64,000 nucleotides of DNA from positions 399 to 64,398 of the IMG/VR virus record IMGVR_UViG_3300042988_000067; one strand, given 5' to 3'. Numbering within the stretch: position 1 is the stretch's first letter; the number at the start of each line of letters is the position of its first letter. The DNA comes from a virus (Duplodnaviria; Caudoviricetes). Under the pieces are notes generated by a model. That model made no database searches. It had not been told where the DNA came from and was given only the letters and a program-made list of their open reading frames with translations. Shown here in pieces: positions 2,804 to 46,562 of the stretch. The position numbers were made by a program, and so were the translations under genes.

Positions 2804-3982
2804 GCTATAACTCCGCAGAGAACGTAAATGGAGAACCACCAGAACAGTAGGTTTGGTATTGACCTGCGGCAGTTACTTGAAGCGTCATATCGCACGAATC
2901 TGCCGATCTGGTATTCAACGATTCAGTTGCCGCCGTTACGTTTGATCTCGTCCATGTAACTCCCGCCAAAGACATACTAGGAGCAATCCGCATGGTTACT
3001 GGGAACTTGATTTGTCCGTAATATACAGCCCCTGCCGCTACCCTGTACCCATAGGCATTTATTGCTGTGGTTGTCGGGTCAATCTGCCAGTAGTACCTCT
3101 GACACAGCGCCAGTTCAGTTCCATACGGACGCTGTTCAAACTCGGTTGCGGTGGAGCCGATTTCTAGTTGGAACTCGCTAACCAGATACGATTTTGATGC
3201 TACCGAGTTTGCTGTATCGTCATAGATTGTAACGGCTAGTCCGAGAGATGCTTCAGCCGCGCCAAGTGTGTATGTTGTGGAAATAGTTGTGCAAGTGTTG
3301 TTGGCGACAGGAAGCGCACTTGACGTGTGGATAGATGTTGTTGCCGTGAACGTGTCAATCGTAGACGTTGGCTTGAGCAACTGTATTTTGAAGTTACGGG
3401 AACCTCCCGTGTTCTGGTACACCTTGCAACTAACCGTTATTGTTTTGCCATTCAGGTCGATTACGTTTGCTGACTCGAGCCTTGTTTGCGCGAGGAACTG
3501 CCCAGTTGTCCAAGTACCGTCTGGTGTTCCTATCGCCGTGTTACTCGTAAATCCGATGGCTTGCGCTGTAGTCGTGCCGTTGAGCGTTCCAGATACCGTA
3601 GTGCCGCCAGAAATGTATACGATCCACCTATCAGCAGAACCGTAAATATTATTGGTTGCGGTCAGGGCGACACCAGTTCCGCGCTGTCTTACAATCCCAG
3701 AACCATTGATAATCCGATTCCTAAACCCCGCGAGTTGACCGCCATTCAGGCTGGAAGCCGTATACGCATTCGCCGTGGTAAACACATCATCGGCCAACAT
3801 TGCATTTTGAATTTTAGTGGTCATACATTAGACCTCGTACTGGAAGTTGAAGTAGATATACTTGTTTGTCCCAGTTGGGCAGTTTGCTGTGGTGATCTGT
3901 GTACGCTGGCCGTTGGTTGCGTTGTTGTGCTCTATAAACAGTGTATTAGATGAAGCTTGCACAGACGCATAGAATGGGCCGA
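2445..3982. repeat. Direct repeat copy 1 (~1.54 kb), near-identical to 62463..64000
   Basis: Identical 339-aa translation in both copies; offset 60,018 bp; mismatches seen at 2498, 2504 and 2525. Confidence 0.95.
2805..3824 (-). CDS. Tail fibre/receptor-binding-like protein (copy A)
   Basis: 339 aa; FRNRIING...DRW...QLEIGSTATEFEQRPYGTELALCQRYY...FPVTMR motifs of carbohydrate-binding-type phage fibre modules. Confidence 0.7.
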   Translation of the reverse strand: MTTKIQNAMLADDVFTTANAYTASSLNGGQLAGFRNRIINGSGIVRQRGTGVALTATNNIYGSADRWIVYISGGTTVSGTLNGTTTAQAIGFTSNTAIGTPDGTWTTGQFLAQTRLESANVIDLNGKTITVSCKVYQNTGGSRNFKIQLLKPTSTIDTFTATTSIHTSSALPVANNTCTTISTTYTLGAAEASLGLAVTIYDDTANSVASKSYLVSEFQLEIGSTATEFEQRPYGTELALCQRYYWQIDPTTTAINAYGYRVAAGAVYYGQIKFPVTMRIAPSMSLAGVTWTRSNVTAATESLNTRSADSCDMTLQVTAAGQYQTYCSGGSPFTFSAEL

Positions 3983-27274: not shown

Positions 27275-29389
27275 CTACTCACGGTCTTCCGGGTCAATTA
27301 CCTCGGTGTAGGCCGTTTTTGGCAGCTTTTTCTGTGGCATATTATCCGGAATACCCTTGTTGATGACCCTCTGTCCGATGGTCACGCGGACACCCTTTTC
27401 GGTGACTCTCCAGCCCTTTCCGTCACGCTCGATGAAGCCCATTTCGGCCACATCATCCAGCAACCTGCCGACCTGTTTGCGGCGTGTCGCGTCGTTGGAT
27501 CCCATCTTCATGTTGATGTTTTCCCCGAACGTGATCGCCGTGGTGAACTTGTAGTCGCTCAGACCCTTGATCACCGTTTGAGCCGAGATATCCTTCTTGC
27601 TGCTGGTGTTGTTCTCGGTGTTGGCCAGACCACGGTGGGACTGGGACATCTCGTCAGCCGGACCGATCACGCAGGAATGGATCTCGTCCCCGTCCTCGTC
27701 ATGCCCGATCACCACGGACTCCAGCCTGAAGTCGAACTCGATACCGTCCTGCCCATCCTTTGACTTGGCCAGCGTCCAGTTGCGGTCGTCACCATCGCGT
27801 GTGGTCTCAATCGCCACGTCCAGTGCAGCCAGCAGTGAGCTGTGGCCACGCAGACCCTTCGTGGCATCCTTCCCGCTATGGTGAACAGCGCACACCAGAC
27901 CACCAACAGACGCCTGAATCCACTTGCACGCATCGATGATCATGCCCATATCCTTTGAGCTGTTCTCATCACTGCCGGAGCTGGCGCGGTTCAGGGTGTC
28001 TATGATGATCACCGGATTGTCGGATCTGGTAGCCCTGATGGCCTCCACCAGCCTGACGCAGTCTTCCTTGATAAGCACGTTGATGGGCTGTGTAATGATG
28101 TCGATCAGACCATCCTCACGCTTTGTCGCCTCGATGATGGCCTTCATCCGGTTCGATATCCCAGCCTCGCCCTCCAGAGCGCAGTAGATCACGCGACGCT
28201 GCTTCACCTTATGACCGAACCACATCTGCCCACGAGCGATAGCGATGGCCATGTCGATGCACAGGAACGACTTGCCGGTAGCGGGCGCCCCGTAGATCGA
28301 TATCAGACCGGTCTCTGGGATGATGTTCTTGATGATCCACCGAGTGAACGGCATCGCCTTCATGTCGGACAGTGAGTACAGCTTGTAGTGCAGCTGCTTC
28401 TCGTGGTGCCCAGCCCAGACGTGGAAGTCCGCAGCCGTCATGCCCTCCAGCTCTGCATCCGCCGCGTCCCACTTCGGTGGCATGCTTGACACATCGATGG
28501 TCGAGATCTCCGCGTCTAGGTTATCCTTCAGCCAGTCTCCTGCCTTGTGTCCTGCCTCATCGTTGTCAGGCCAGATCAGCACCTTGCGCCCCGTCAGGAT
28601 GTCCCACGCCGCGTTCTTGACTGCCGAAGCACCTGACGGCCACGTAGTAGCGATGTAGCCATCCCCAGCGATCCGCATGGCCGCGTCAGCTGACTTCTCA
28701 CCCTCGCAAATCAGGACGGTCGCTGTTGGATTCTGGGCGATCAGGTGCAGGTTGTAGAGCGGCTTCTGACCCTCCCAGCCCTTCATCTCCCACTTGCCAC
28801 CTCTCGGCGTCCATGGGCAGAACTCCTTCTTACCCTCACCCTTGTTGTAGCGGGCCACAACACCGATGATCTTGCCGTCAGCGTTGCGATACTCCCACGC
28901 ATCATCTGCATCCCCATGAACTGGGTGCTTGCATGTGGGTAGCGTGTCCAGTGTCTCCCAGCCATTAACACCATGGTGTTTGTCCGCATGCGGTTTTTCA
29001 CTCTCCGCGTGCGTTTTTCTGGGTGACTCCGGGATCACCTTCTGGGTGGCTTGCTTGGTAGTTAGTTGGTATCGGTCTTGTAGTTCAAGTGCTGCGTTTC
29101 GGTTTGTGGTCCCGTTCATCTGAGCGTAGAGTGATATCAGATCCCCGCCCTGCTGACCGACCGCAAAATCAGCCCACTTGCCTGTGTTCACGTTGATCGA
29201 GAGACTGTCACCCTTCTCGCCCCACAGGTTGCCGATCTTGAACTCGGATCCTGATAGCTTGCCCTGTGGGAACCACTCCCTGAGCAGTGATCTGGACATG
29301 GACAGCAGGCTCTGCGCCAGTCTTGGGAAGTCAACGTCGTGCGTTTGCGCAGGCGGCACTAGCCCCGCATTGAATGTGATTTTAGCCAT
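27275..29389 (-). CDS. Primase-helicase (TOPRIM + RepA/AAA_25-type helicase)
   Basis: GKWADF..GGDLISL, ICEGEKSADA, IWPDNDEAG (TOPRIM); GAPATGKS, IIIDTL and VHHSGKD..GLRGHSSL helicase motifs. Confidence 0.9.
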   Translation of the reverse strand: MAKITFNAGLVPPAQTHDVDFPRLAQSLLSMSRSLLREWFPQGKLSGSEFKIGNLWGEKGDSLSINVNTGKWADFAVGQQGGDLISLYAQMNGTTNRNAALELQDRYQLTTKQATQKVIPESPRKTHAESEKPHADKHHGVNGWETLDTLPTCKHPVHGDADDAWEYRNADGKIIGVVARYNKGEGKKEFCPWTPRGGKWEMKGWEGQKPLYNLHLIAQNPTATVLICEGEKSADAAMRIAGDGYIATTWPSGASAVKNAAWDILTGRKVLIWPDNDEAGHKAGDWLKDNLDAEISTIDVSSMPPKWDAADAELEGMTAADFHVWAGHHEKQLHYKLYSLSDMKAMPFTRWIIKNIIPETGLISIYGAPATGKSFLCIDMAIAIARGQMWFGHKVKQRRVIYCALEGEAGISNRMKAIIEATKREDGLIDIITQPINVLIKEDCVRLVEAIRATRSDNPVIIIDTLNRASSGSDENSSKDMGMIIDACKWIQASVGGLVCAVHHSGKDATKGLRGHSSLLAALDVAIETTRDGDDRNWTLAKSKDGQDGIEFDFRLESVVIGHDEDGDEIHSCVIGPADEMSQSHRGLANTENNTSSKKDISAQTVIKGLSDYKFTTAITFGENINMKMGSNDATRRKQVGRLLDDVAEMGFIERDGKGWRVTEKGVRVTIGQRVINKGIPDNMPQKKLPKTAYTEVIDPEDRE

Positions 29390-29398
29390 GACCCTTCC

Positions 29399-29608
29399 TT
29401 ACGCCGACAGGATGTCGTTGAGTTCTTGTAGGGTCAGATCCTGACGCATGTATTTTTCGCCGCGCTTGGTGGTGATCTCAACATCCACCCACTCACGATG
29501 GTGTGACGCTAGGCGCCCAGTCTTTTTGGATGAAACTATCTCTACTGACGCGACGGTATCCATCGCAATGAATTTTGTATCGGACACCGATACGAAGTTT
29601 GATGCCAT
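29399..29608 (-). CDS. Hypothetical protein
   Basis: 69-aa ORF with AAGGA RBS in the leftward operon. Confidence 0.45.
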   Translation of the reverse strand: MASNFVSVSDTKFIAMDTVASVEIVSSKKTGRLASHHREWVDVEITTKRGEKYMRQDLTLQELNDILSA

Positions 29609-29668
29609 TTTGAAATCGTCCTTTTCAAAAGTAAAAGTTACCCCCTATCCGAGGGGGCGTCGGTGCAA

Positions 29669-29905
29669 CTATTCTACTCCATCCATCCCGTAGATGTTGA
29701 ACATGGCGTTCATTTCATCGGTCGTGATGGCGGCGACATACGTGGAGTCATCCCCATGTATCCTGATCGTTGCGTGGAACACACCACCCTCAGCGACAAA
29801 GGCGCCTTCGCTCTCCTGAAACGAGATACTCCGGATGCTGTCCACCGAGATCAGCGTGTCATCAACGTTCTCGTCGCTCACCAGCAACATGTCCTTCTTA
29901 CTCAT
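29669..29905 (-). CDS. Hypothetical protein
   Basis: Likely start MSKKDM at 29905. Confidence 0.45.
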   Translation of the reverse strand: MSKKDMLLVSDENVDDTLISVDSIRSISFQESEGAFVAEGGVFHATIRIHGDDSTYVAAITTDEMNAMFNIYGMDGVE

Positions 29906-30164
29906 AAAAGTCCTCTCCCTTGAATCCAAAAATAAGGTCACCATAGGTAATGGTGATACCCAGTCCATTTGCTACATTAATGATGCGGTCCCACCACCGT
30001 CGAGGGATCTGCCCAGCCGTACCGTCACCCATGTCACGGTGCACCCAACACCAGATGGTGGTGTGGTGACACCCTAACAATTTGGCGAGGTCGCGGTAGG
30101 ACATCCCGAACTTTCCGATGATGGAGCACGCCGGCTCGATCCCACTCGTCTTGTCGTCAGTCAT
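29898..30164 (-). CDS. Cro-like HTH regulator
   Basis: Start MTDDK after GGAGG; IIGKFG..YRDLAKLLGCHHTTIWCW...GQIP; first gene of the leftward operon. Confidence 0.65.
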   Translation of the reverse strand: MTDDKTSGIEPACSIIGKFGMSYRDLAKLLGCHHTTIWCWVHRDMGDGTAGQIPRRWWDRIINVANGLGITITYGDLIFGFKGEDFYE

Positions 30165-30226
30165 AAAATTACCTCCAGACCAGACTCTAGCACAGGTGTA
30201 TGCATGACGCAAACGCGCTGGTGACC

Positions 30227-30482
30227 TGCCTATTTTTTAAGCAAACCCTAGTTGCCTATTTTTTGAGCAGTGATTTTAGAGTGTTGAATACCCGCATACA
30301 AAAGTCAGGTATTGCTCGTAAGTGATTGATTTTAATTCCAGAAAAACGTCGATTATTTTTGACCACCCTATACGGTAGCATCAGAAAACATTTAAATCGA
30401 TCCTAGAGCGATTCTGAGGCTTTTAGAGGCATGATCAAAAAATAGGCAATTTCATGATGCCTGTGGATATCTCTGTGGATAA
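30227..30482. promoter_or_regulatory. Host-factor site cluster: Fis-like x3, IHF x1, DnaA boxes x2
   Basis: GCCTATTTTTTAAGC (30228), GCCTATTTTTTGAGC (30254) and GATCAAAAAATAGGC (30433) fit the Fis consensus GNNYANNNNNTRNNC; 30319-30331 fits IHF WATCAANNNNTTR on the minus strand; TGTGGATAA at 30474 is a perfect DnaA box and TGTGGATAT at 30462 has one mismatch. Confidence 0.6.
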
Positions 30483-30561
30483 CATTGGCGCGGGTTCAAA
30501 GTGTTGTCATGTAATGATCACCCTAATTACCACCCCAGTTTCACCCCTATTAAAATAGTTG

Positions 30562-30590
30562 TTGACACGATGCAAACGCATCTATACCAT
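30562..30590 (+). promoter_or_regulatory. Sigma70 early promoter P1
   Basis: TTGACA-17-TACCAT. Confidence 0.75.
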
Positions 30591-30638
30591 GAGCGAAGTT
30601 TCACAGCTAACTAACTAACTTACTAAAGGAGCACTGAC

Positions 30639-30980
30639 ATGGAAAACTTCAACGCAATCGTACTGCACGCAAAACTCTTCGGCCTGCATCAGACCGGCAG
30701 TCTTGTTTTTTCCGATGGCTATAACCACGTTGCAAATTTCTCTGGCGAGGCCAAAAGCGAGGAAGCATTCCTTGAGGACGTGTTCTATAACACCAACAGC
30801 ATCGATCACGGCTGGTGGGAAAACGAAGGTATCGAGCTGTGCGGTGAGGCCAAGGTTAATGGTGGCGCCCGCTCTACCAGCGTAGGCGATGTGGTCATCG
30901 TCTGCCAAGGCGAAAAGGAAACGGTCTACCGCTGCGGCATCATCGGCTGGGAGAAGATCATCCTCAAGCACACTCACTAA
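30639..30980 (+). CDS. Early protein with YodL-like motif
   Basis: RSTSVGDVV...YRC..IGW resembles the YodL-type RSLSVGDVV motif; strong RBS. Confidence 0.5.
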   Translation: MENFNAIVLHAKLFGLHQTGSLVFSDGYNHVANFSGEAKSEEAFLEDVFYNTNSIDHGWWENEGIELCGEAKVNGGARSTSVGDVVIVCQGEKETVYRCGIIGWEKIILKHTH

Positions 30981-30981
30981 T

Positions 30982-31041
30982 TCGATCTGACGAGGCTGGG
31001 TAGCCCCCAGCCGAAACGCTGCGAAGCGTAATCGATAGCTA
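30982..31041 (+). ncRNA. Hammerhead ribozyme, type I
   Basis: Stem I TCGAT/ATCGA; core CTGACGA; stem II GGCTGGG/CCCAGCC; GAAA; stem III CGCT-GCGA-AGCG; GTA cleavage triplet (cut after A31030); loop II TAGC can pair with GCTA at 31038-31041. Confidence 0.92.
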
Positions 31042-31066
31042 ACTAACTTACTGATTGGAGAACGAC

Positions 31067-31387
31067 ATGACATTGAAAGTGATTTTTGAATTTGAAGGCC
31101 AGCAGCGCAAGACTCTGACCGGCATCCTGAACCTGCTGGGCAAGTGCTTCGCCAATGCCGATGTGTTCCACATCCCGACGCACTTCGACGACAACGATTT
31201 CATTGAGGAGCACTTTATCCTGTCGCTGCGCCCGAACACACTTAGCCTGAACGATGGATCCGTTGGCCTGACCGTCACCGACACCATCCTGCTGGGCAAG
31301 GGCGTCCTGCTCAAGCGCATCAGCTCCAACTTCAGGCTGCCCGCTGAGTTCCGCAAACCGAGCCGTCTCAACCAAGGAGCCAACTAA
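31067..31387 (+). CDS. Early hypothetical protein
   Basis: GGAGAACGACATG start following the ribozyme. Confidence 0.6.
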   Translation: MTLKVIFEFEGQQRKTLTGILNLLGKCFANADVFHIPTHFDDNDFIEEHFILSLRPNTLSLNDGSVGLTVTDTILLGKGVLLKRISSNFRLPAEFRKPSRLNQGAN

Positions 31388-31388
31388 C

Positions 31389-31730
31389 ATGGGAATCTGC
31401 GTCTACAAGCTGACCGGTAAGGTCATCAATCTGGAGGGAGGCATCACGGCTCAGGTGGCCGTGTTTGCCTACAAGCCAACGTTCTGTGGCTTCGATGCCG
31501 AGAAATGGAACCGTGCAGCAGCGCGCGCCACCGGCTGCAACAGGCCGATCAAGGTGCGCTCGATCAACATCGCCATCGTGCATGACGACGAGTGCGAGGT
31601 GTTCCGCAACGAGGGCGGCCTGTCGGTGTTCTATGACGACCTGATCGGTCGCGCCGAGCACTTCCCCAAGGTTGGCGGGTTCATCAAGGACGGTAAGTTG
31701 TGGTATGGTCCGAAAGTGTTGACAATATAA
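31389..31730 (+). CDS. Early hypothetical protein
   Basis: 113 aa, AAGGAG RBS. Confidence 0.6.
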   Translation: MGICVYKLTGKVINLEGGITAQVAVFAYKPTFCGFDAEKWNRAAARATGCNRPIKVRSINIAIVHDDECEVFRNEGGLSVFYDDLIGRAEHFPKVGGFIKDGKLWYGPKVLTI

Positions 31731-31747
31731 ATTAGCTCCTGTACCAT
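31719..31747 (+). promoter_or_regulatory. Sigma70 early promoter P2
   Basis: AAAGTG-TTGACA-17-TACCAT. Confidence 0.75.
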
Positions 31748-31789
31748 CCGCCTTGTAGTACAGCTAACTAACTAACCAAGGAGAACGAC

Positions 31790-32029
31790 ATGACAACCGA
31801 TACCAAACAAACCGCTGACCAGCTGAACGCTGTGTTCGATGTCAACCGTGAGTGCTACAACCTCACCGAGGCATCCACCGGCAAGCTGATTGGTCGCTTC
31901 CGCCTGATCCGCGAGCTGATCGACATCCTGCAAGCCAAGGGCATCTACGGCAACCTGCAAGTGGTCGAAGGCAACGACGACAGCGTGATCACCATCACCC
32001 CGCGTGGTGGCCGCTACAACACCTACTAA
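31790..32029 (+). CDS. Early hypothetical protein
   Basis: 79 aa; CTAA leader plus AAGGAG. Confidence 0.6.
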   Translation: MTTDTKQTADQLNAVFDVNRECYNLTEASTGKLIGRFRLIRELIDILQAKGIYGNLQVVEGNDDSVITITPRGGRYNTY

Positions 32030-32045
32030 CCAAAGGAGGTACCCG

Positions 32046-32294
32046 ATGAACAAGCAGGAACTCTTCGACGGCCTGAGAACCGTAGCCAAGCTGGAGGCCG
32101 AGGCCGACCAGCGCGCCAAGGAGGTGGGCGTCTTCACCTCCAGCGAGCATCACCTCAAGGTGAAGTTCGACGTGGTGCTGCTGCCCTCCGGGGCGGCAGT
32201 GTGGCGCAACCTCAGCCTGAAGGAGGCCGAGCAGAAGCTGGAAGCTCTGGCCTGCTCTGGGCTGGAGGGCTACGCTGAGCCGGTGTTTATCTAG
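32046..32294 (+). CDS. Early hypothetical protein
   Basis: Start MNKQELF after AAGGAGG. Confidence 0.55.
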   Translation: MNKQELFDGLRTVAKLEAEADQRAKEVGVFTSSEHHLKVKFDVVLLPSGAAVWRNLSLKEAEQKLEALACSGLEGYAEPVFI

Positions 32295-32308
32295 CTGGCT
32301 TAAAAGTG

Positions 32309-32337
32309 TTGACAAGGCGGGTCTGCATCTGTAAGAT
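32309..32337 (+). promoter_or_regulatory. Sigma70 early promoter P3
   Basis: AAAAGTG-TTGACA-17-TAAGAT-CCGTCTTGT. Confidence 0.8.
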
Positions 32338-32381
32338 CCGTCTTGTACCACTTAACTAACTAGCTAACAGGAGTAAACGAC

Positions 32382-33035
32382 ATGGAAAACAACATTCAAC
32401 TTCGAGGTCGCTGCCAGTGCTGCGGCAACCTGCAAGCCGTCGTGAACGGTCGCTCCAGCAAGCATGGCTACACTGTTGACCATGGCTGGTTCAATGGCGT
32501 GTGCAGCGGCCAGCACCACGCTCCAATCGAGCAAGACCGCAAGGTCGCTGATGACATCGTCGAGACCGTTCTGGCTGACGTGAAGGTCATCCGCGAAAAG
32601 GCTTACGCTCTCCGCATCGGCAAAATTGATCCTGTCTGGACCAAGTGGGTCTGGGTCGAAGGCAAGAACCACAAGCAGCAACAGGCTGTTGAGTGCAAGG
32701 CCGATGAGCTGTCCGAGTATGAGCGTGCTGGCCAGCGCAAGAACGCAATCTACCGCCACGAGCAGCGTGCAAGGGACGGCGAAGACTTTGCCAAGTACCT
32801 GCGCGACGTGGCCGACAAGTACCACGGCAAGGATCTGGTCAAGGTCGAGAAGAAGGCTCCGGCCAAGTGGATCGAGGCTGGCGAGAAGAAGCTGAGCGAA
32901 GGCGGCCACACGCTGATCGCCAGATACCAAGACGGCGCCCGCGTGTACTACAAGTTCAGCCGCGCAGGCCAAGACAAGGTCTACACCGGCTGGATAGGTA
33001 CCCAAGCATGGAGGAAGCTGCCGGACGTTGAGTAA
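32382..33035 (+). CDS. Early protein with Zn-binding-like N-terminus
   Basis: 217 aa; GRCQCCG...SKHGY...GWFNGVCSG. Confidence 0.55.
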   Translation: MENNIQLRGRCQCCGNLQAVVNGRSSKHGYTVDHGWFNGVCSGQHHAPIEQDRKVADDIVETVLADVKVIREKAYALRIGKIDPVWTKWVWVEGKNHKQQQAVECKADELSEYERAGQRKNAIYRHEQRARDGEDFAKYLRDVADKYHGKDLVKVEKKAPAKWIEAGEKKLSEGGHTLIARYQDGARVYYKFSRAGQDKVYTGWIGTQAWRKLPDVE

Positions 33036-33038
33036 CAG

Positions 33039-33145
33039 GGGTAGGCTGGGAAACCAGCCTGCATCTGAGAGTGGATGGGGTCAGTTGATGTCAGCTTCTG
33101 ACTCGTGTGCGTGACAGCACCCTGCGTCCATTCCCAGATGCACCC
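33039..33145 (+). ncRNA. Structured intergenic RNA (multi-branched), function unknown
   Basis: GGGT/ACCC closing a GAAA-capped 7-bp hairpin and a ~16-bp arm (33061-33077 / 33125-33141) that encloses two more hairpins. Confidence 0.55.
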
Positions 33146-33171
33146 AACTAACTAACTTACTGGAGAATGAC

Positions 33172-33495
33172 ATGACAACCGGACTGATTATTGACCTGCT
33201 TGAGGCAGAAGAACTTGTGAAGTACGGCAAGCCGCAGACAACGCTGGAGTACGCGCTGTTCGACAAGCTGAAGGAGCTGCTGGACTCCCGCAATGAATGG
33301 TACGAGGTTGCCGACAACTACAGCTGCTGCACACCGGAGGAGCTGACTTCCCTGATCGAAAGCAAGGACGGCGAGATCGAGGATCTGGAGGAAGAGAAAG
33401 GCAAGCTGGAGACAGAGCGCGATGAGTTGCTGCTTGAGGTCGAGCGCCTGACTGACCTCGTCAATGATCTTGAGGAGAGCGACGATGACAAGTGA
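33172..33495 (+). CDS. Acidic coiled-coil early protein
   Basis: 107 aa, very Asp/Glu-rich. Confidence 0.55.
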   Translation: MTTGLIIDLLEAEELVKYGKPQTTLEYALFDKLKELLDSRNEWYEVADNYSCCTPEELTSLIESKDGEIEDLEEEKGKLETERDELLLEVERLTDLVNDLEESDDDK

Positions 33496-33700
33496 TCAAC
33501 AAAAGAAGCTGGTCAGCGACCTGATTAACAGGGTGGCCAATGACATCATCGACCGCATTCATCTTGGCCGTATCCCAGAGAGCTGGGACGGCGCAGAGCT
33601 TCGGCAGTACGTGTCAGACCAGTTTCACGTGGAATGCTTTGGCCTCTCCGGCAAGCGCCGGAAAGAATACGACAACGACGTTATAGTGAACAACCTTTAG
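33485..33700 (+). CDS. Early hypothetical protein
   Basis: Start MTSDQQ; IPESWDGAELRQY. Confidence 0.55.
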   Translation: MTSDQQKKLVSDLINRVANDIIDRIHLGRIPESWDGAELRQYVSDQFHVECFGLSGKRRKEYDNDVIVNNL

Positions 33701-34282: not shown

Positions 34283-34311
34283 TTGACAGGCGGATTTTGC
34301 TTCTGTAAGAT
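34283..34311 (+). promoter_or_regulatory. Sigma70 early promoter P4
   Basis: AAAAGTG-TTGACA-17-TAAGAT-CCGTCTTGT. Confidence 0.8.
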
Positions 34312-34353
34312 CCGTCTTGTTGTAACTAACTAGCTTACTTTTAAGGGGTGGAC

Positions 34354-34580: not shown

Positions 34581-35432
34581 ATGAACTACATTTCTTATGG
34601 CCGCGCTGCAAACCAGACCGTGTTCCGCAGCAACACTCCACTCTCCAACGACCAGATCGCTCGCTACGCTCCTAGCGTGTTTGCGACCGAGGCTCACGAG
34701 TCCCGTGGCGAGCGCTACAGCTTCATCCCGACAATCGACGTTCTGCAAGGTCTGTCCAACGAGGGCTTCCTGCCCTACGAAGTGCGCCAGACTCGCGTCC
34801 GCGATCAGTCCAAGCGTGAGCACACCAAGCACCTGATCCGCCTGCGTCACGCCAATCACGGTACGCTGGTGGCCGGCTCCGAGATCCCTGAGATCTGCCT
34901 GATCAACTCCCACGACGGTACATCGTCCTACCAGCTGATCGGCGGCGTCTTCCGCGTGGTCTGCTCCAACGGTCTGATTGCCGGCAACATCGCTGACGAC
35001 ATCCGGATCCGCCACAGCGGCAACGTGGTCGGTGACGTGATCGAAGGCAGCTACCGCGTGCTGGATAACCTGAAGGAGATCGAGTCCCGCGTCGATACCT
35101 ACAAGGCTATCAACCTCGACGTGCGCGAGCAGCTTGCTCTGGCCAACGCAGCAATCGATCTGCGCTGGGATCGTGACGAGGTCAGCCAGAAGGCTCCGGT
35201 GCAGGCAGACTCACTGCTGGCAGTGCACCGCTGGGATGACCGCAAGGCAGACCTCTGGACCACCTTCAACGTGATCCAAGAGAACCTGATCAAGGGCGGC
35301 GTCCGCGCCCGCACCAGCACCGGCAAGCGCACCCACACCCGCGCTGTTGGTGGCGTCAACGAGAACGTGAAGCTGAACCGCGCTCTCTGGTCTCTGGCTG
35401 ATGCTCTTGCAGAGCACAAGCTGGCCGCTTAA
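34581..35432 (+). CDS. DUF932/DUF945-family protein
   Basis: APSVFA.EAHESR..RY.FIPT...TKHLIRLR...LINSHDGTSSYQL.GVFRVVCSNGL...DLWTTFNVIQEN. Confidence 0.85.
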   Translation: MNYISYGRAANQTVFRSNTPLSNDQIARYAPSVFATEAHESRGERYSFIPTIDVLQGLSNEGFLPYEVRQTRVRDQSKREHTKHLIRLRHANHGTLVAGSEIPEICLINSHDGTSSYQLIGGVFRVVCSNGLIAGNIADDIRIRHSGNVVGDVIEGSYRVLDNLKEIESRVDTYKAINLDVREQLALANAAIDLRWDRDEVSQKAPVQADSLLAVHRWDDRKADLWTTFNVIQENLIKGGVRARTSTGKRTHTRAVGGVNENVKLNRALWSLADALAEHKLAA

Positions 35433-43406: not shown

Positions 43407-43611
43407 TTCACAAAAACTTGTGAGGGAGATGGAACATGTTAAACCACTCGGACGAGACACTGTGGTACGCCACAATCCTGAGCCTAATTTTCGTATTGCT
43501 AGTTACGGGGTACGGGCTAGGAAACTTTCAAACCGAACGGACGGCAGAGTGTTCGGTGACTTTAAAAGATGGGTTCGGAAACAAACACGTCTGGCTGACG
43601 AGGTGTGAATT

Positions 43612-46495: not shown

Positions 46496-46524
46496 TTGAC
46501 ATGATCGAAATTCATCTGTAAGAT
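46496..46524 (+). promoter_or_regulatory. Sigma70 promoter P7
   Basis: AAAAGTG-TTGACA-17-TAAGAT-CCGT. Confidence 0.8.
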
Positions 46525-46562
46525 CCGTTACATCAACTAACGAACTTACTAGGGAGCACGAC

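What the first reader, a model, noticed from the sequence alone, without database searches (positions are those of the whole stretch)
30982..31041. Canonical type I hammerhead ribozyme separating the first two early genes
Seen: 1 nt after the stop codon of the first early gene is TCGAT-CTGACGA-GGCTGGG-tagcc-CCCAGCC-GAAA-CGCT-gcga-AGCG-TA-ATCGA. This gives the full core (CUGANGA, GAAA, UH), three perfect stems, a GNRA loop on stem III and a GUA triplet, with predicted cleavage after A31030. Loop II (UAGC) is complementary to GCUA at 31038-31041, and that GCUA is the first unit of the downstream (CTAA)n translation leader. Established: loop II tertiary contacts accelerate natural hammerheads, and hammerheads occur in phage intergenic regions with mostly unknown roles. 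Inference: the P1 transcript self-cleaves into a ~430-nt monocistronic RNA with a 2',3'-cyclic phosphate and a 5'-OH downstream RNA. A 5'-OH end is a poor substrate for 5'-monophosphate-dependent RNase E decay. Ribozyme folding and leader accessibility may be coupled.
Basis: partly seen in the sequence, partly recalled or inferred. Interest (0 to 1): 0.85.

Follow-up and report, generated by a model that had tools for sequence, protein, structure and literature searches.

The report
Hammerhead ribozyme between two phage genes
A small self-cutting RNA, a hammerhead ribozyme of a kind already described in phages, sits between two early genes of an uncultured phage and most likely cuts their shared messenger RNA in two.

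Summary
Window 30982-31035 (+) is a complete type I hammerhead with a full catalytic core, three perfect stems and predicted cleavage after A31030. Loop II (31001-31004) can pair with GCUA 31038-31041. A descriptor scan finds this one site in the window and none in 200 dinucleotide shuffles.

No Rfam model reports it. Rfam at gathering also misses 11 sister ribozymes, so this looks like a gap in the library.

A pattern taken from the core plus stem II found 36 viral contigs and 5 bacterial MAG contigs. All 39 instances, the window's included, have a 5-bp stem I, a stem III hairpin, U-H, and a 3' tail complementary to loop II. Stems I, II and III and the pseudoknot all covary. A model built without the window scores it 75.3 bits, against 13.6 for the next hit.

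This architecture, its pseudoknot and its placement between small phage genes were described in 2011 (PMC3088659). It is therefore a new member of a known kind.

Cleavage, and its effects on RNA stability or translation, remain untested. No close relative of this phage and no RNA data could be found.

The parts
30562..30590 (+). Promoter-like site P1 (TTGACA, 17 nt, TACCAT). The predicted start is near 30597.
   Evidence: 10 of 12 matches. The start site is inferred from the usual 7-nt distance after the -10 hexamer and was not measured.
30606..30628 (+). (CUAA)n leader and GGAG of gene 1. It is a copy of the leader that follows the ribozyme.
30639..30980 (+). Upstream gene 1 (113 aa), stop TAA 30978-30980. 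It is YodL-like by language-model and predicted-structure likeness only.
   Evidence: No Pfam or PHROG family. Atlas feature score 0.96 and TM about 0.7 to clusters in which 11-36% of members carry PF14191. This is a lead only.
30982..30986 (+). Stem I, 5' strand (UCGAU)
   Evidence: In the family, 4 of 5 stem I pairs show changes on both sides and 100% of cells are paired.
30987..30993 (+). Core C3 U4 G5 A6 C7 G8 A9 (CUGACGA)
   Evidence: Core conservation in 44 distinct family members is.
30994..31012 (+). Stem II (GGCUGGG/CCCAGCC, 7 bp, G10.1-C11.1) with 5-nt loop II UAGCC at 31001-31005
   Evidence: Among members the CM found without the pattern, 5 of 6 inner pairs covary.
31001..31004 (+). 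Pseudoknot, 5' half (UAGC of loop II)
31013..31015 (+). Core G12 A13 A14
31016..31029 (+). Stem III hairpin, A15.1-CGCU / AGCG-U16.1 (5 bp), with GNRA loop GCGA at 31021-31024
31030..31031 (+). Predicted scissile bond. A31030 is H17 (GUA triplet) and A31031 would carry the 5'-OH.
   Evidence: Position follows from the hammerhead numbering (established knowledge). H17 is C in 41 and A in 3 of 44 distinct family members. Cleavage was not assayed.
31031..31035 (+). Stem I, 3' strand (AUCGA)
31038..31041 (+). Pseudoknot, 3' half (GCUA), 2 nt after stem I
   Evidence: Pair types are UA 33, CG 3, GC 2; GC 21, AU 20; GC 41; UA 27, CG 16.
31038..31060 (+). (CUAA)n leader GCUAACUAACUUACU followed by GGAG at 31057-31060
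   Evidence: The 3' product 31031-31110 is not more structured than shuffles (z = +0.78).
31067..31387 (+). Downstream gene 2 (106 aa from ATG 31067). The 5' UTR after cleavage would be 36 nt.
   Evidence: All nine leaders end in GACATG. No family found.

Best explanation
Window 30982-31035 encodes a functional type I hammerhead ribozyme. It belongs to a phage-borne subfamily with a 5-bp stem I, a 7-bp stem II capped by a 5-nt loop, a stable stem III hairpin, and a 4-5 bp pseudoknot between loop II and the RNA 1-2 nt downstream of stem I.

It is transcribed as part of the + strand early operon that starts at the promoter-like site 30562-30590. It folds in the 86-nt space between gene 1 and gene 2 and cuts the transcript between A31030 and A31031.

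Cleavage would release a gene 1 mRNA of about 434 nt. That RNA would end in the stem II and stem III hairpins with a 2',3'-cyclic phosphate. The downstream RNA would begin with a 5'-OH, 7 nt before the (CUAA)n leader and 36 nt before the ATG of gene 2. The fates of gene 1 and the distal genes would then be uncoupled.

Shown here: the motif, its rarity by chance, and conservation and covariation of all four helices. Inferred: transcription through the site, cleavage in vivo, and any effect on stability or translation.
For: 1. The sequence matches every core position and forms three perfect stems. The MFE fold gives the junction.

2. There is one descriptor hit in the window and 0 hits in 200 shuffles.

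3. The core plus stem II pattern occurs in 36 viral contigs (38 instances) and 5 prokaryote contigs. All 39 of 39 instances parsed, window included, also have features that were not in the pattern. These are a 5-of-5-paired stem I, a U16.1 with non-G H17, and a tail complementary to loop II.

4. Covariation on 24 sequences: 97.4% of cells are paired against 89.4% in shuffles, with 0 of 500 shuffles reaching the observed value. Stem I has 4 of 5 pairs changed on both sides and the pseudoknot has 3 of 5.

5. Covariation on 44 distinct CM matches, 14 of them not retrievable by the pattern: 96.7% paired against 80.3% in shuffles and at most 43.7% in slid controls. Pairs with changes on both sides are stem I 4 of 5, stem II 5 of 6, pseudoknot 4 of 5 and stem III 2 of 3.

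6. The core is invariant in 42 of 44 distinct sequences. The other 2 have U4C.

7. Model R2, built from 30 relatives without the window, scores the site 75.3 bits. The next hit in the window scores 13.6.

8. Context: same strand as the flanking ORFs. A promoter-like site lies upstream, and no + strand terminator-like site lies in 29900-33200.

9. In the family, an ORF stop codon ends 0-4 nt before stem I in 27 of 39 instances. My crude first-start rule puts the next start 12-31 nt after the cut in 31 of 39.

10. Literature passages read report the following. Pseudoknots between stems I and II are needed for fast cleavage and occur in all three types. Hammerheads flank single genes in prophages. 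Three A. tumefaciens hammerheads cleaved when their DNA was cloned and transcribed in E. coli. Three predicted type II hammerheads cleave in Desulfovibrio vulgaris cells.
Against: - No cleavage assay and no RNA ends exist for this locus.
- No Rfam hammerhead model matches, even at E <= 10.
- Conservation at this locus could not be tested, because no close relative of the phage or of the flanking genes was found. Distant relatives carry no match to R1.
- In a 231-nt context the MFE structure replaces stem II. A 9-bp helix forms between UCGGCUGGG 30943-30951, inside gene 1, and CCCAGCCGA 31006-31014. That structure has an ensemble frequency of only 0.0011, and the competitor is absent from the other 33 contexts.
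- A ribosome terminating at TAA 30978-30980 would cover stem I and the core. Folding therefore has to compete with translation (inference).
- Family conservation of the core and of stem II is partly by construction, because both were in the search pattern.
Confidence: 0.85

Rival explanations
1. Same ribozyme, but its purpose is translational. Cleavage creates a free 5' end just upstream of the (CUAA)n leader, so that gene 2 is read like a promoter-proximal gene. The ribozyme would act as a post-transcriptional promoter, and the pseudoknot would hold the leader until the cut is made.
For: - The same leader, ending in GGAG-N5-7-GACATG, precedes nine genes.
- Five of the nine leaders lie directly behind TTGACA-17-TACCAT/TAAGAT promoters. 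The two at 34283-34311 and 46496-46524 I read by eye.
- Assuming a start 7 nt after the -10 hexamer, the predicted 5' UTRs are 42, 36, 38, 36 and 32 nt. The ribozyme product would have 36 nt.
- A sixth leader, at 33143, follows a strongly structured 136-nt spacer.
- In fungal and plant RNA viruses, hammerhead self-cleavage upstream of an ORF is required for its translation (PMC13725137, passages read).
Against: - Two leaders (34546 and 41463) lie inside operons with no promoter, ribozyme or evident structure before them. The leader therefore does not need a nearby 5' end.
- Start sites are predicted, not mapped.
- The eukaryotic precedent concerns cap-independent initiation and does not transfer directly to bacteria.
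- Nothing was measured here.
Confidence: 0.2
2. Same ribozyme, but its purpose is differential mRNA stability. The 5'-OH end would shield the downstream RNA from 5'-monophosphate-stimulated RNase E. The stem II and stem III hairpins with a cyclic phosphate would shield the 3' end of the gene 1 RNA.
For: - The cut leaves two stable hairpins at the 3' end of the upstream product.
- No terminator separates the genes.
- The idea that ribozyme processing gives transcripts of different stability is the standing hypothesis in the literature.
- That 5'-OH RNA is a poor RNase E substrate is from my own knowledge, not from a call.
Against: - The host is unknown. The nearest terminases, at 50% identity, are from Roseobacter phages, so the presence of RNase E in the host is only likely.
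- From recall: in Bacillus, the 5'-OH product of the glmS ribozyme is degraded by RNase J1, so a 5'-OH end can destabilise as well.
- No half-life data exist.
Confidence: 0.3
3. The roughly 65-nt ribozyme-plus-leader unit is mainly a DNA-level linker. It would be a conserved spacer at which small gene cassettes are exchanged by recombination, with self-cleavage secondary or incidental.
For: - Flanking genes are not conserved. There are 37 clusters among 72 flanking ORF products, and the window's two are singletons.
- The same upstream gene (L013, L023, L034) is followed, across a nearly identical ribozyme, by three different downstream genes. L013 shares its downstream gene with L002, which has another upstream gene.
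- Arrays of 2-4 ribozymes flank short genes in L003, L004, L007, L011, L022, L030, L050 and L051.
Against: - A pure recombination linker would not need compensatory changes that keep four RNA helices and an invariant catalytic core.
- The window has a single copy, whose stem I and stem III are its own.
Confidence: 0.1
4. The motif is a chance look-alike or an inactive relic. It could be, for example, a pair of hairpins acting only as an RNA 3'-end stabiliser, or a ribozyme kept unfolded by the upstream 9-bp competitor helix.
For: - No Rfam match.
- A competitor helix appears in the MFE of the 231-nt context.
- No experimental data.
Against: - 0 descriptor hits in 200 shuffles.
- 75.3 bits with a model built without the window.
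- All 13 constrained core positions are canonical.
- Rfam also misses the 11 sister ribozymes in 10 loci.
- The competitor helix is window-specific and sits in translated RNA.
Confidence: 0.04

Closest known systems
Bacterial and phage type I hammerhead ribozymes with a stem I/stem II pseudoknot (Perreault et al. 2011, PMC3088659; passages read)
   Same: - The catalytic core and the open stem I topology.
- A long, stable stem III.
- A pseudoknot of four or more pairs that links stem II to the strand next to stem I.
- Placement between single small genes of phages and prophages, sometimes in arrays.
- The proposed role in cutting long phage transcripts into gene-length mRNAs.
   Different: Nothing categorical. 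This copy has its own stem I, stem III and GUA triplet, is single in its genome, and its pseudoknot partner is the first unit of a leader repeated at nine genes. I could not open that paper's alignments (Dataset S1). I therefore cannot say whether this exact subfamily (GGCUGGG stem II, UNNNN loop) is listed there.
Rfam RF00163 Hammerhead_1 (45-position model)
   Same: The core motifs and the type I topology.
   Different: The model does not score this site at E <= 10. At gathering, Rfam misses all 11 sister ribozymes in 10 loci. From recall, its seed is dominated by eukaryotic satellite and retroelement hammerheads with a very short stem III. The passage contrasts those with the long-helix-III forms of bacteria and phages.
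RNase III processing sites between the early genes of phage T7 (recalled, no call)
   Same: It works like them. An RNA element in the spacer between early genes cuts a polycistronic early transcript into gene-length mRNAs and leaves a hairpin at the new 3' end.
   Different: Here the RNA would cut itself, with no host enzyme. The ends are 2',3'-cyclic phosphate and 5'-OH rather than 3'-OH and 5'-phosphate.
Hammerheads in UTRs and intergenic spacers of fungal and plant RNA viruses that switch on translation of the next ORF (PMC13725137; passages read)
   Same: A type I hammerhead with a long helix III fills a short intergenic spacer, with the cut a few to a few tens of nucleotides before the next start codon.
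   Different: Those are RNA genomes in eukaryotic hosts using cap-independent initiation. Here it is a DNA phage with a Shine-Dalgarno leader. No translational effect has been tested.
Pistol, twister and other self-cleaving ribozymes in the same phage-like gene neighbourhoods
   Same: The genomic niche. One sister contig (L005) carries a Pistol ribozyme (RF02679, 40 bits) 1.4 kb from its hammerhead. The review notes the shared gene associations.
   Different: Different folds. None is present in the window at the Rfam gathering score.

Membership tests
Hammerhead ribozyme (class) | Conserved core: C3 U4 G5 A6 N7 G8 A9, G12 A13 A14, A15.1-U16.1, H17 not G | tested here: met
   CUGACGA 30987-30993, GAA 31013-31015, A31016/U31029 and A31030. 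The same positions are invariant in 42 of 44 distinct relatives, with U4C in the other 2.
Hammerhead ribozyme (class) | Three helices radiating from the core, with G10.1-C11.1 closing stem II | tested here: met
   Stems of 5, 7 and 5 bp, all perfect. G30994-C31012. Covariation is seen in stems I, II and III.
Hammerhead ribozyme, type I topology | Stem I open, stems II and III closed by loops. The order is stem I 5' strand, CUGANGA, stem II, GAAA, stem III, UH, stem I 3' strand. | tested here: met
Natural fast-cleaving hammerheads | [quoted passage not shown] | tested here: met
   UAGC 31001-04 pairs with GCUA 31038-41. In the family, 4 of 5 pseudoknot pairs change on both sides, and 87.9% of cells are paired. 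The pseudoknot was not part of the CM or of the search pattern. Its effect on rate was not assayed.
Hammerhead ribozyme (class) | Mg2+-assisted self-cleavage 3' of H17, giving a 2',3'-cyclic phosphate and a 5'-OH | not testable with these tools
Rfam hammerhead families (RF00163, RF00008 and the others in release 15) | Score at or above the family's gathering cut-off | tested here: not met
   No match at gathering in the window. None at E <= 10 in 221 nt. RF00163 and RF00008 give none at E <= 10 in the whole record. The same failure occurs for 11 sister ribozymes. This lowers the claim of being a member of an Rfam family as modelled. It does not lower the claim of being a hammerhead.
Phage intergenic hammerhead subfamily defined here (models R1, R2) | 5-bp stem I, 7-bp stem II with 5-nt loop, pseudoknot partner 1-2 nt after stem I, stop codon just upstream, Shine-Dalgarno and start codon just downstream | tested here: met
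   75.3 bits with R2, built without the window. The stop codon ends 1 nt before stem I, and the ATG lies 36 nt after the cut.
Conserved element of this phage lineage | Presence at the same locus in related phages | tested here: inconclusive
   No close relatives were retrievable. There was no R1 match in 13 loci with a distant primase relative or in 7 whole records.

The most novel reading that the evidence does not exclude
In this phage the early genes share one translation leader, (CUAA)n-GGAG-N5-7-GACAUG. Three interchangeable devices may place an RNA 5' end a few nucleotides in front of it. They are a sigma-70 promoter (five genes), the hammerhead (gene 2), and a 105-nt structured spacer that may be a nuclease site (the gene at 33172).

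On this reading the hammerhead is a post-transcriptional stand-in for a promoter. It uses the leader itself as its tertiary clamp, so the leader is released for ribosomes only once the cut has been made.
Probability: 0.15. Interest if true: 0.6.

Novelty: new member of a known kind. Interest (0 to 1): 0.3.

Why it matters
The site adds a clean, well-supported hammerhead to an uncultured 64-kb tailed phage. It also shows that current Rfam models miss a whole phage subfamily: 0 of 12 sites, counting the window's, were found at the gathering score.

What bacterial and phage hammerheads do is still an open question in the papers I read. This locus offers a simple test bed. It has one ribozyme, one predicted promoter about 430 nt upstream, no terminator, and a downstream leader that recurs behind ordinary promoters in the same genome. 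The same leader can therefore be compared with a transcriptional and a ribozyme-made 5' end.

The find itself is not surprising to a specialist.

Tried and rejected
**Rfam.** The whole window at gathering gave 0 matches. The 221 nt around the site at E <= 10 gave only two noise hits to snoRNA models on the other strand. RF00163 and RF00008 on the whole record at E <= 10 gave none.

**Close relatives of the phage.**
- Megablast of 29500-33500 against GenBank phages: no match.
- Gene 1 protein in viral contigs: none.
- Gene 1 and gene 2 proteins by tblastn against phages: none.
- Gene 2 protein in metagenome contigs: 312 pattern hits, none confirmed.
- The 217-aa protein in viral contigs: none confirmed.
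- By tblastn the 217-aa protein matches 34 phage records at under 60% identity, among them Pseudomonas phage PAE1 and Burkholderia phages. Their neighbourhoods are not syntenic.
- The hammerhead pattern with this stem I in metagenome contigs: 0.
- The tools warn that records of, or very near, the window's genome may be left out.

**R1 on distant relatives.** There was no match at E <= 1 in 13 loci with a primase relative. In 5 whole records the only match was one 10.6-bit noise hit. There was none in 2 further records.

**Further hammerheads in the window.** None was found. The best other hits are 14.9 bits with R1 and 13.6 bits with R2, at 43530-43590. That site reads CGGACG where CUGANGA should be.

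**RNA evidence.** No RNA holder was listed.

**Competitor helix.** I considered the upstream GGCUGGG copy as a conserved off-switch. I rejected it as a family feature, because 0 of 33 other contexts has an upstream copy within 200 nt.

**Structured spacer.** I considered the spacer at 33036-33171 as a second ribozyme. There is no Rfam match beyond noise, and I saw no hammerhead core there by eye.

**Not used.** Complex prediction, structure prediction, the search for homologous proteins and the search of protein representatives, because they were not needed for an RNA finding. Supplementary files were not requested. Dataset S1 of PMC3088659 may list this subfamily.
Full report
**What is there.**
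- Gene 1 (30639..30980, + strand, 113 aa) ends in TAA at 30978-30980.
- One base later come UCGAU (30982-86), CUGACGA (30987-93), GGCUGGG (30994-31000), the loop UAGCC (31001-05) and CCCAGCC (31006-12).
- Then follow GAA (31013-15) and the hairpin A-CGCU-GCGA-AGCG-U (31016-29).
- A31030 comes next, then AUCGA (31031-35).

In standard hammerhead numbering this is C3-A9, a stem II closed by G10.1-C11.1, G12 A13 A14, a stem III that starts with A15.1-U16.1, H17 = A, and a stem I that is open at its ends. It is therefore a type I hammerhead with a GUA triplet, and the scissile bond lies between 31030 and 31031. The numbering and the cleavage rule are established knowledge, not a tool result.

The MFE fold of 30975-31045 gives the three-way junction at -23.3 kcal/mol, z = -2.61.

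**Is it more than chance?** The bare core pattern is not: it gives 8 matches in the window against 10.3 expected. A descriptor that also demands the three stems finds only 30982-31035 on either strand. It finds nothing in 200 dinucleotide-preserving shuffles of the window, even with every stem relaxed to 3 bp.

**Rfam says nothing, and why that does not count against it.**
- cmscan of the window at gathering gives no match.
- The 221 nt around the site at E <= 10 give only two noise hits to snoRNA models on the opposite strand.
- RF00163 and RF00008 run on the whole 64,398-base virus record give nothing at E <= 10.

The same library at gathering finds none of the 11 sister hammerheads in ten related loci, although it does find a Pistol ribozyme in one of them. 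The Rfam models therefore do not cover this subfamily. The formal test 'scores above an Rfam cut-off' is not met, and I report it as such.

**A family.** A pattern made from the window's core and stem II (CTGANGA-GGCTGGG-N3-8-CCCAGCC-GAAA) matches 36 IMG/VR contigs with 38 instances. It also matches 5 prokaryote MAG contigs, labelled Firmicutes, Christensenellales-like, two Treponema and Peptococcaceae.

I parsed the 38 viral instances plus the window's own for features that were not in the pattern. All 39 (29 distinct) have the following:
- five of five stem I pairs;
- a stem III hairpin;
- U16.1 and a non-G H17;
- after a 1-2 nt spacer, four or five bases complementary to loop II.

A covariance model (R1) built from 24 distinct members was run over 33 sources. 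These were the window, the 5 MAG loci and 27 of the 36 viral loci. I left out nine viral loci whose ribozymes were identical to ones kept: L008, L009, L015, L016, L021, L029, L031, L035 and L036. R1 found 48 matches. Fourteen of them have other stem II sequences or an extra U after A9, and so could not have been found by the pattern.

**Covariation.** On the 24-sequence MAFFT alignment, 97.4% of cells pair, against 89.4% in shuffles. Stem I has 4 of 5 pairs, and the pseudoknot 3 of 5, with changes on both sides. None of 500 shuffles reaches the observed values.

On the 44 distinct CM matches, 96.7% of cells pair, against 80.3% in shuffles and at most 43.7% in slid controls. Pairs changed on both sides are stem I 4 of 5, inner stem II 5 of 6, pseudoknot 4 of 5 and stem III 2 of 3.

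Three caveats apply. That alignment was fitted to stems I-III, though not to the pseudoknot. Related sequences inflate shuffle tests. The core and stem II of 30 of the 44 rows were fixed by the pattern.

The core is canonical in 42 of 44 distinct rows, with U4C in two copies in L011. H17 is C in 41 rows and A in 3. A second model (R2), built from 30 relatives without the window, scores the window's site 75.3 bits. The next hit in 64 kb scores 13.6 bits.

**The pseudoknot.** Other members pair UGGU with ACCA, UAGU with ACUA, UGAUU with AAUCA, UGGCU with AGCCA and CGGC with GCCG. Per-pair counts are UA 33, CG 3, GC 2; GC 21, AU 20, GU 1; GC 41, AU 1, GU 1; and UA 27, CG 16. A fifth pair forms in 23 of 43 rows.

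Perreault et al. 2011 showed by mutation and rescue that such pseudoknots are needed for fast cleavage. They state that such pseudoknots occur in all three hammerhead types, in about 40% of representatives (PMC3088659, passages read).

**Context in the family.** An ORF with at least 40 open codons has its stop codon ending 0-4 nt before stem I in 27 of 39 instances. The stop ends within 9 nt either side of the first base of stem I in 33 of 39. The other six had no such ORF, and three of those lie within 100 nt of a contig end.

My crude rule took the first ATG, GTG or TTG that opens at least 35 codons. It puts the next start 12-31 nt after the cut in 31 of 39 instances. In 7 it falls at 0-1 nt, which is an artefact of a start-like triplet at the first bases of the stem I 3' strand. 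In 1 it falls at 57 nt.

The flanking genes are not conserved. There are 37 clusters among 72 products, and the window's two are singletons. Several contigs hold arrays of two to four ribozymes 0.3-1.5 kb apart. This matches the 2011 description of ribozymes that flank individual genes whose identities are not constant.

**Context in the window.** The record is a tailed dsDNA phage with a large terminase, a portal and a tail fibre. Its nearest cultured terminase relatives, at 50% identity, are Roseobacter phages. The host is unknown.

The ribozyme lies in a + strand block of small genes that runs divergently from an HTH gene (29898..30212, -) and a primase-helicase (27275..29389, -). Gene 1 and gene 2 match no Pfam or PHROG family. 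Gene 1 is YodL-like by Atlas features (0.96) and predicted structure (TM about 0.7), which is a lead only. Gene 2 has no usable hit.

A promoter-like site, TTGACA-17-TACCAT, lies at 30562-30590. No + strand terminator-like site lies in 29900-33200.

**The leader.** GCTAACTAACTTACT and its variants occur 13 times on the + strand, against 0.57 expected. They mark nine translation start regions, all of which end in GACATG.
- Five follow a TTGACA-17-TACCAT/TAAGAT promoter. Three promoters were found. I read the two at 34283-34311 and 46496-46524 by eye.
- One follows the ribozyme.
- One follows a strongly structured spacer.
- Two (34546 and 41463) follow nothing evident.

Predicted 5' UTRs from the promoters are 42, 36, 38, 36 and 32 nt. 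The ribozyme product would have 36 nt. The 3' product 31031-31110 is no more structured than shuffles (z = +0.78).

**Mechanism.** The most likely course is as follows. The early transcript from P1 folds the hammerhead in the 86-nt spacer. The loop II to leader pseudoknot aligns stems I and II. The RNA then cuts itself after A31030.

The gene 1 RNA keeps two hairpins and a cyclic phosphate at its 3' end. The distal RNA starts with a 5'-OH, 7 nt before the leader.

Everything after 'folds' is inference from the class. Which consequence matters is open, and the literature leaves it open too (PMC6765202). The candidates are stability of either product, translation of gene 2, or both.

Two features could modulate activity. 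A ribosome stopping at TAA, 1 nt upstream, would melt stem I and the core (inference). In addition, a 9-bp helix between 30943-30951 in gene 1 and 31006-31014 replaces stem II in the MFE of a 231-nt context. That structure has an ensemble frequency of 0.0011 and z = -1.18, and the competitor is absent from the 33 other contexts.

**Limits.** No close relative of this phage could be retrieved. Distant relatives have no R1 match. Conservation at this locus is therefore untested. Supplementary alignments of the 2011 paper were not seen.

**Verdict.** This is a real, canonical type I hammerhead with a covariation-supported pseudoknot, sitting where phage hammerheads are known to sit. It is a new member of a known kind.

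Noticed in passing
window 33036-33171: The 136-nt spacer between ORF 32382..33035 and ORF 33172..33495 folds into a strongly structured RNA: -58 kcal/mol, z = -3.34, with 1 of 200 shuffles as stable. It holds a hairpin AGGCUGG-GAAA-CCAGCCU at 33043-33061, just after the stop codon, and a long branched hairpin from about 33061 to 33142. The structure ends just before the (CUAA)n leader at 33143. There is no Rfam match beyond noise. It might be a nuclease (RNase III-type) site or an unknown RNA doing the same job as the hammerhead.
   Followed up: partly
window 30562-30638, 31719-31789, 32309-32381, 34283-34353, 46496-46562: Five copies of one promoter-leader module. It consists of (AAAAGTG)TTGACA, 17 nt, TACCAT or TAAGAT, 11-16 nt, the (CTAA)n leader, GGAG, and then GACATG. 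Four of the nine leader-bearing genes start ATGGAAAAC and three start ATGACA, so the repeat reaches into the first codons.
   Followed up: partly
window 30943-30951 with 31006-31014: UCGGCUGGG inside gene 1 can pair over 9 bp with CCCAGCCGA, the 3' strand of stem II plus G12 and A13. This replaces the ribozyme fold in the MFE of a 231-nt context. It is not seen upstream of any of 33 other family members. It may be chance, or a local link between translation of gene 1 and ribozyme folding.
   Followed up: partly
L005:1965-2019 (+): A Pistol ribozyme (RF02679, 40 bits against a cut-off of 34.5) lies 1.4 kb upstream of that contig's hammerhead at 3430-3494.
   Followed up: no
L003, L004, L007, L011, L022, L030, L050, L051: Arrays of two to four type I hammerheads of this subfamily, 0.3-1.5 kb apart on one strand, bracket short genes. 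Examples are L030 at 11016, 11360 and 11731, and L011 at 5779, 6681, 7461 and 8385. The window has only one.
   Followed up: partly
L011:5779-5847 and L011:7461-7528: Two array members read CCGAUGA or CCGACGA, with C at core position 4 where U is otherwise invariant. They are either core variants or decayed copies.
   Followed up: no
L013, L023, L034, L002 (ribozyme flanks): The same upstream gene is joined, across a nearly identical ribozyme, to three different downstream genes. One of those downstream genes recurs behind another upstream gene. The ribozyme-leader unit therefore sits at mosaic junctions between gene cassettes.
   Followed up: partly
window 30639-30980: Gene 1 has no Pfam or PHROG hit. 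It resembles YodL-like proteins (PF14191) of phages and polyvalent proteins in the ESM Atlas, with features 0.96 and TM 0.68-0.72. DUF932 (34581..35432) lies in the same early block.
   Followed up: partly
Rfam release 15 against L001, L002, L003, L005, L007, L011, L017, L022, L024, L030 and the window: None of the 12 hammerheads of this subfamily (11 in the ten loci plus the window's) reaches any Rfam gathering score. Routine annotation would miss the whole subfamily.
   Followed up: yes
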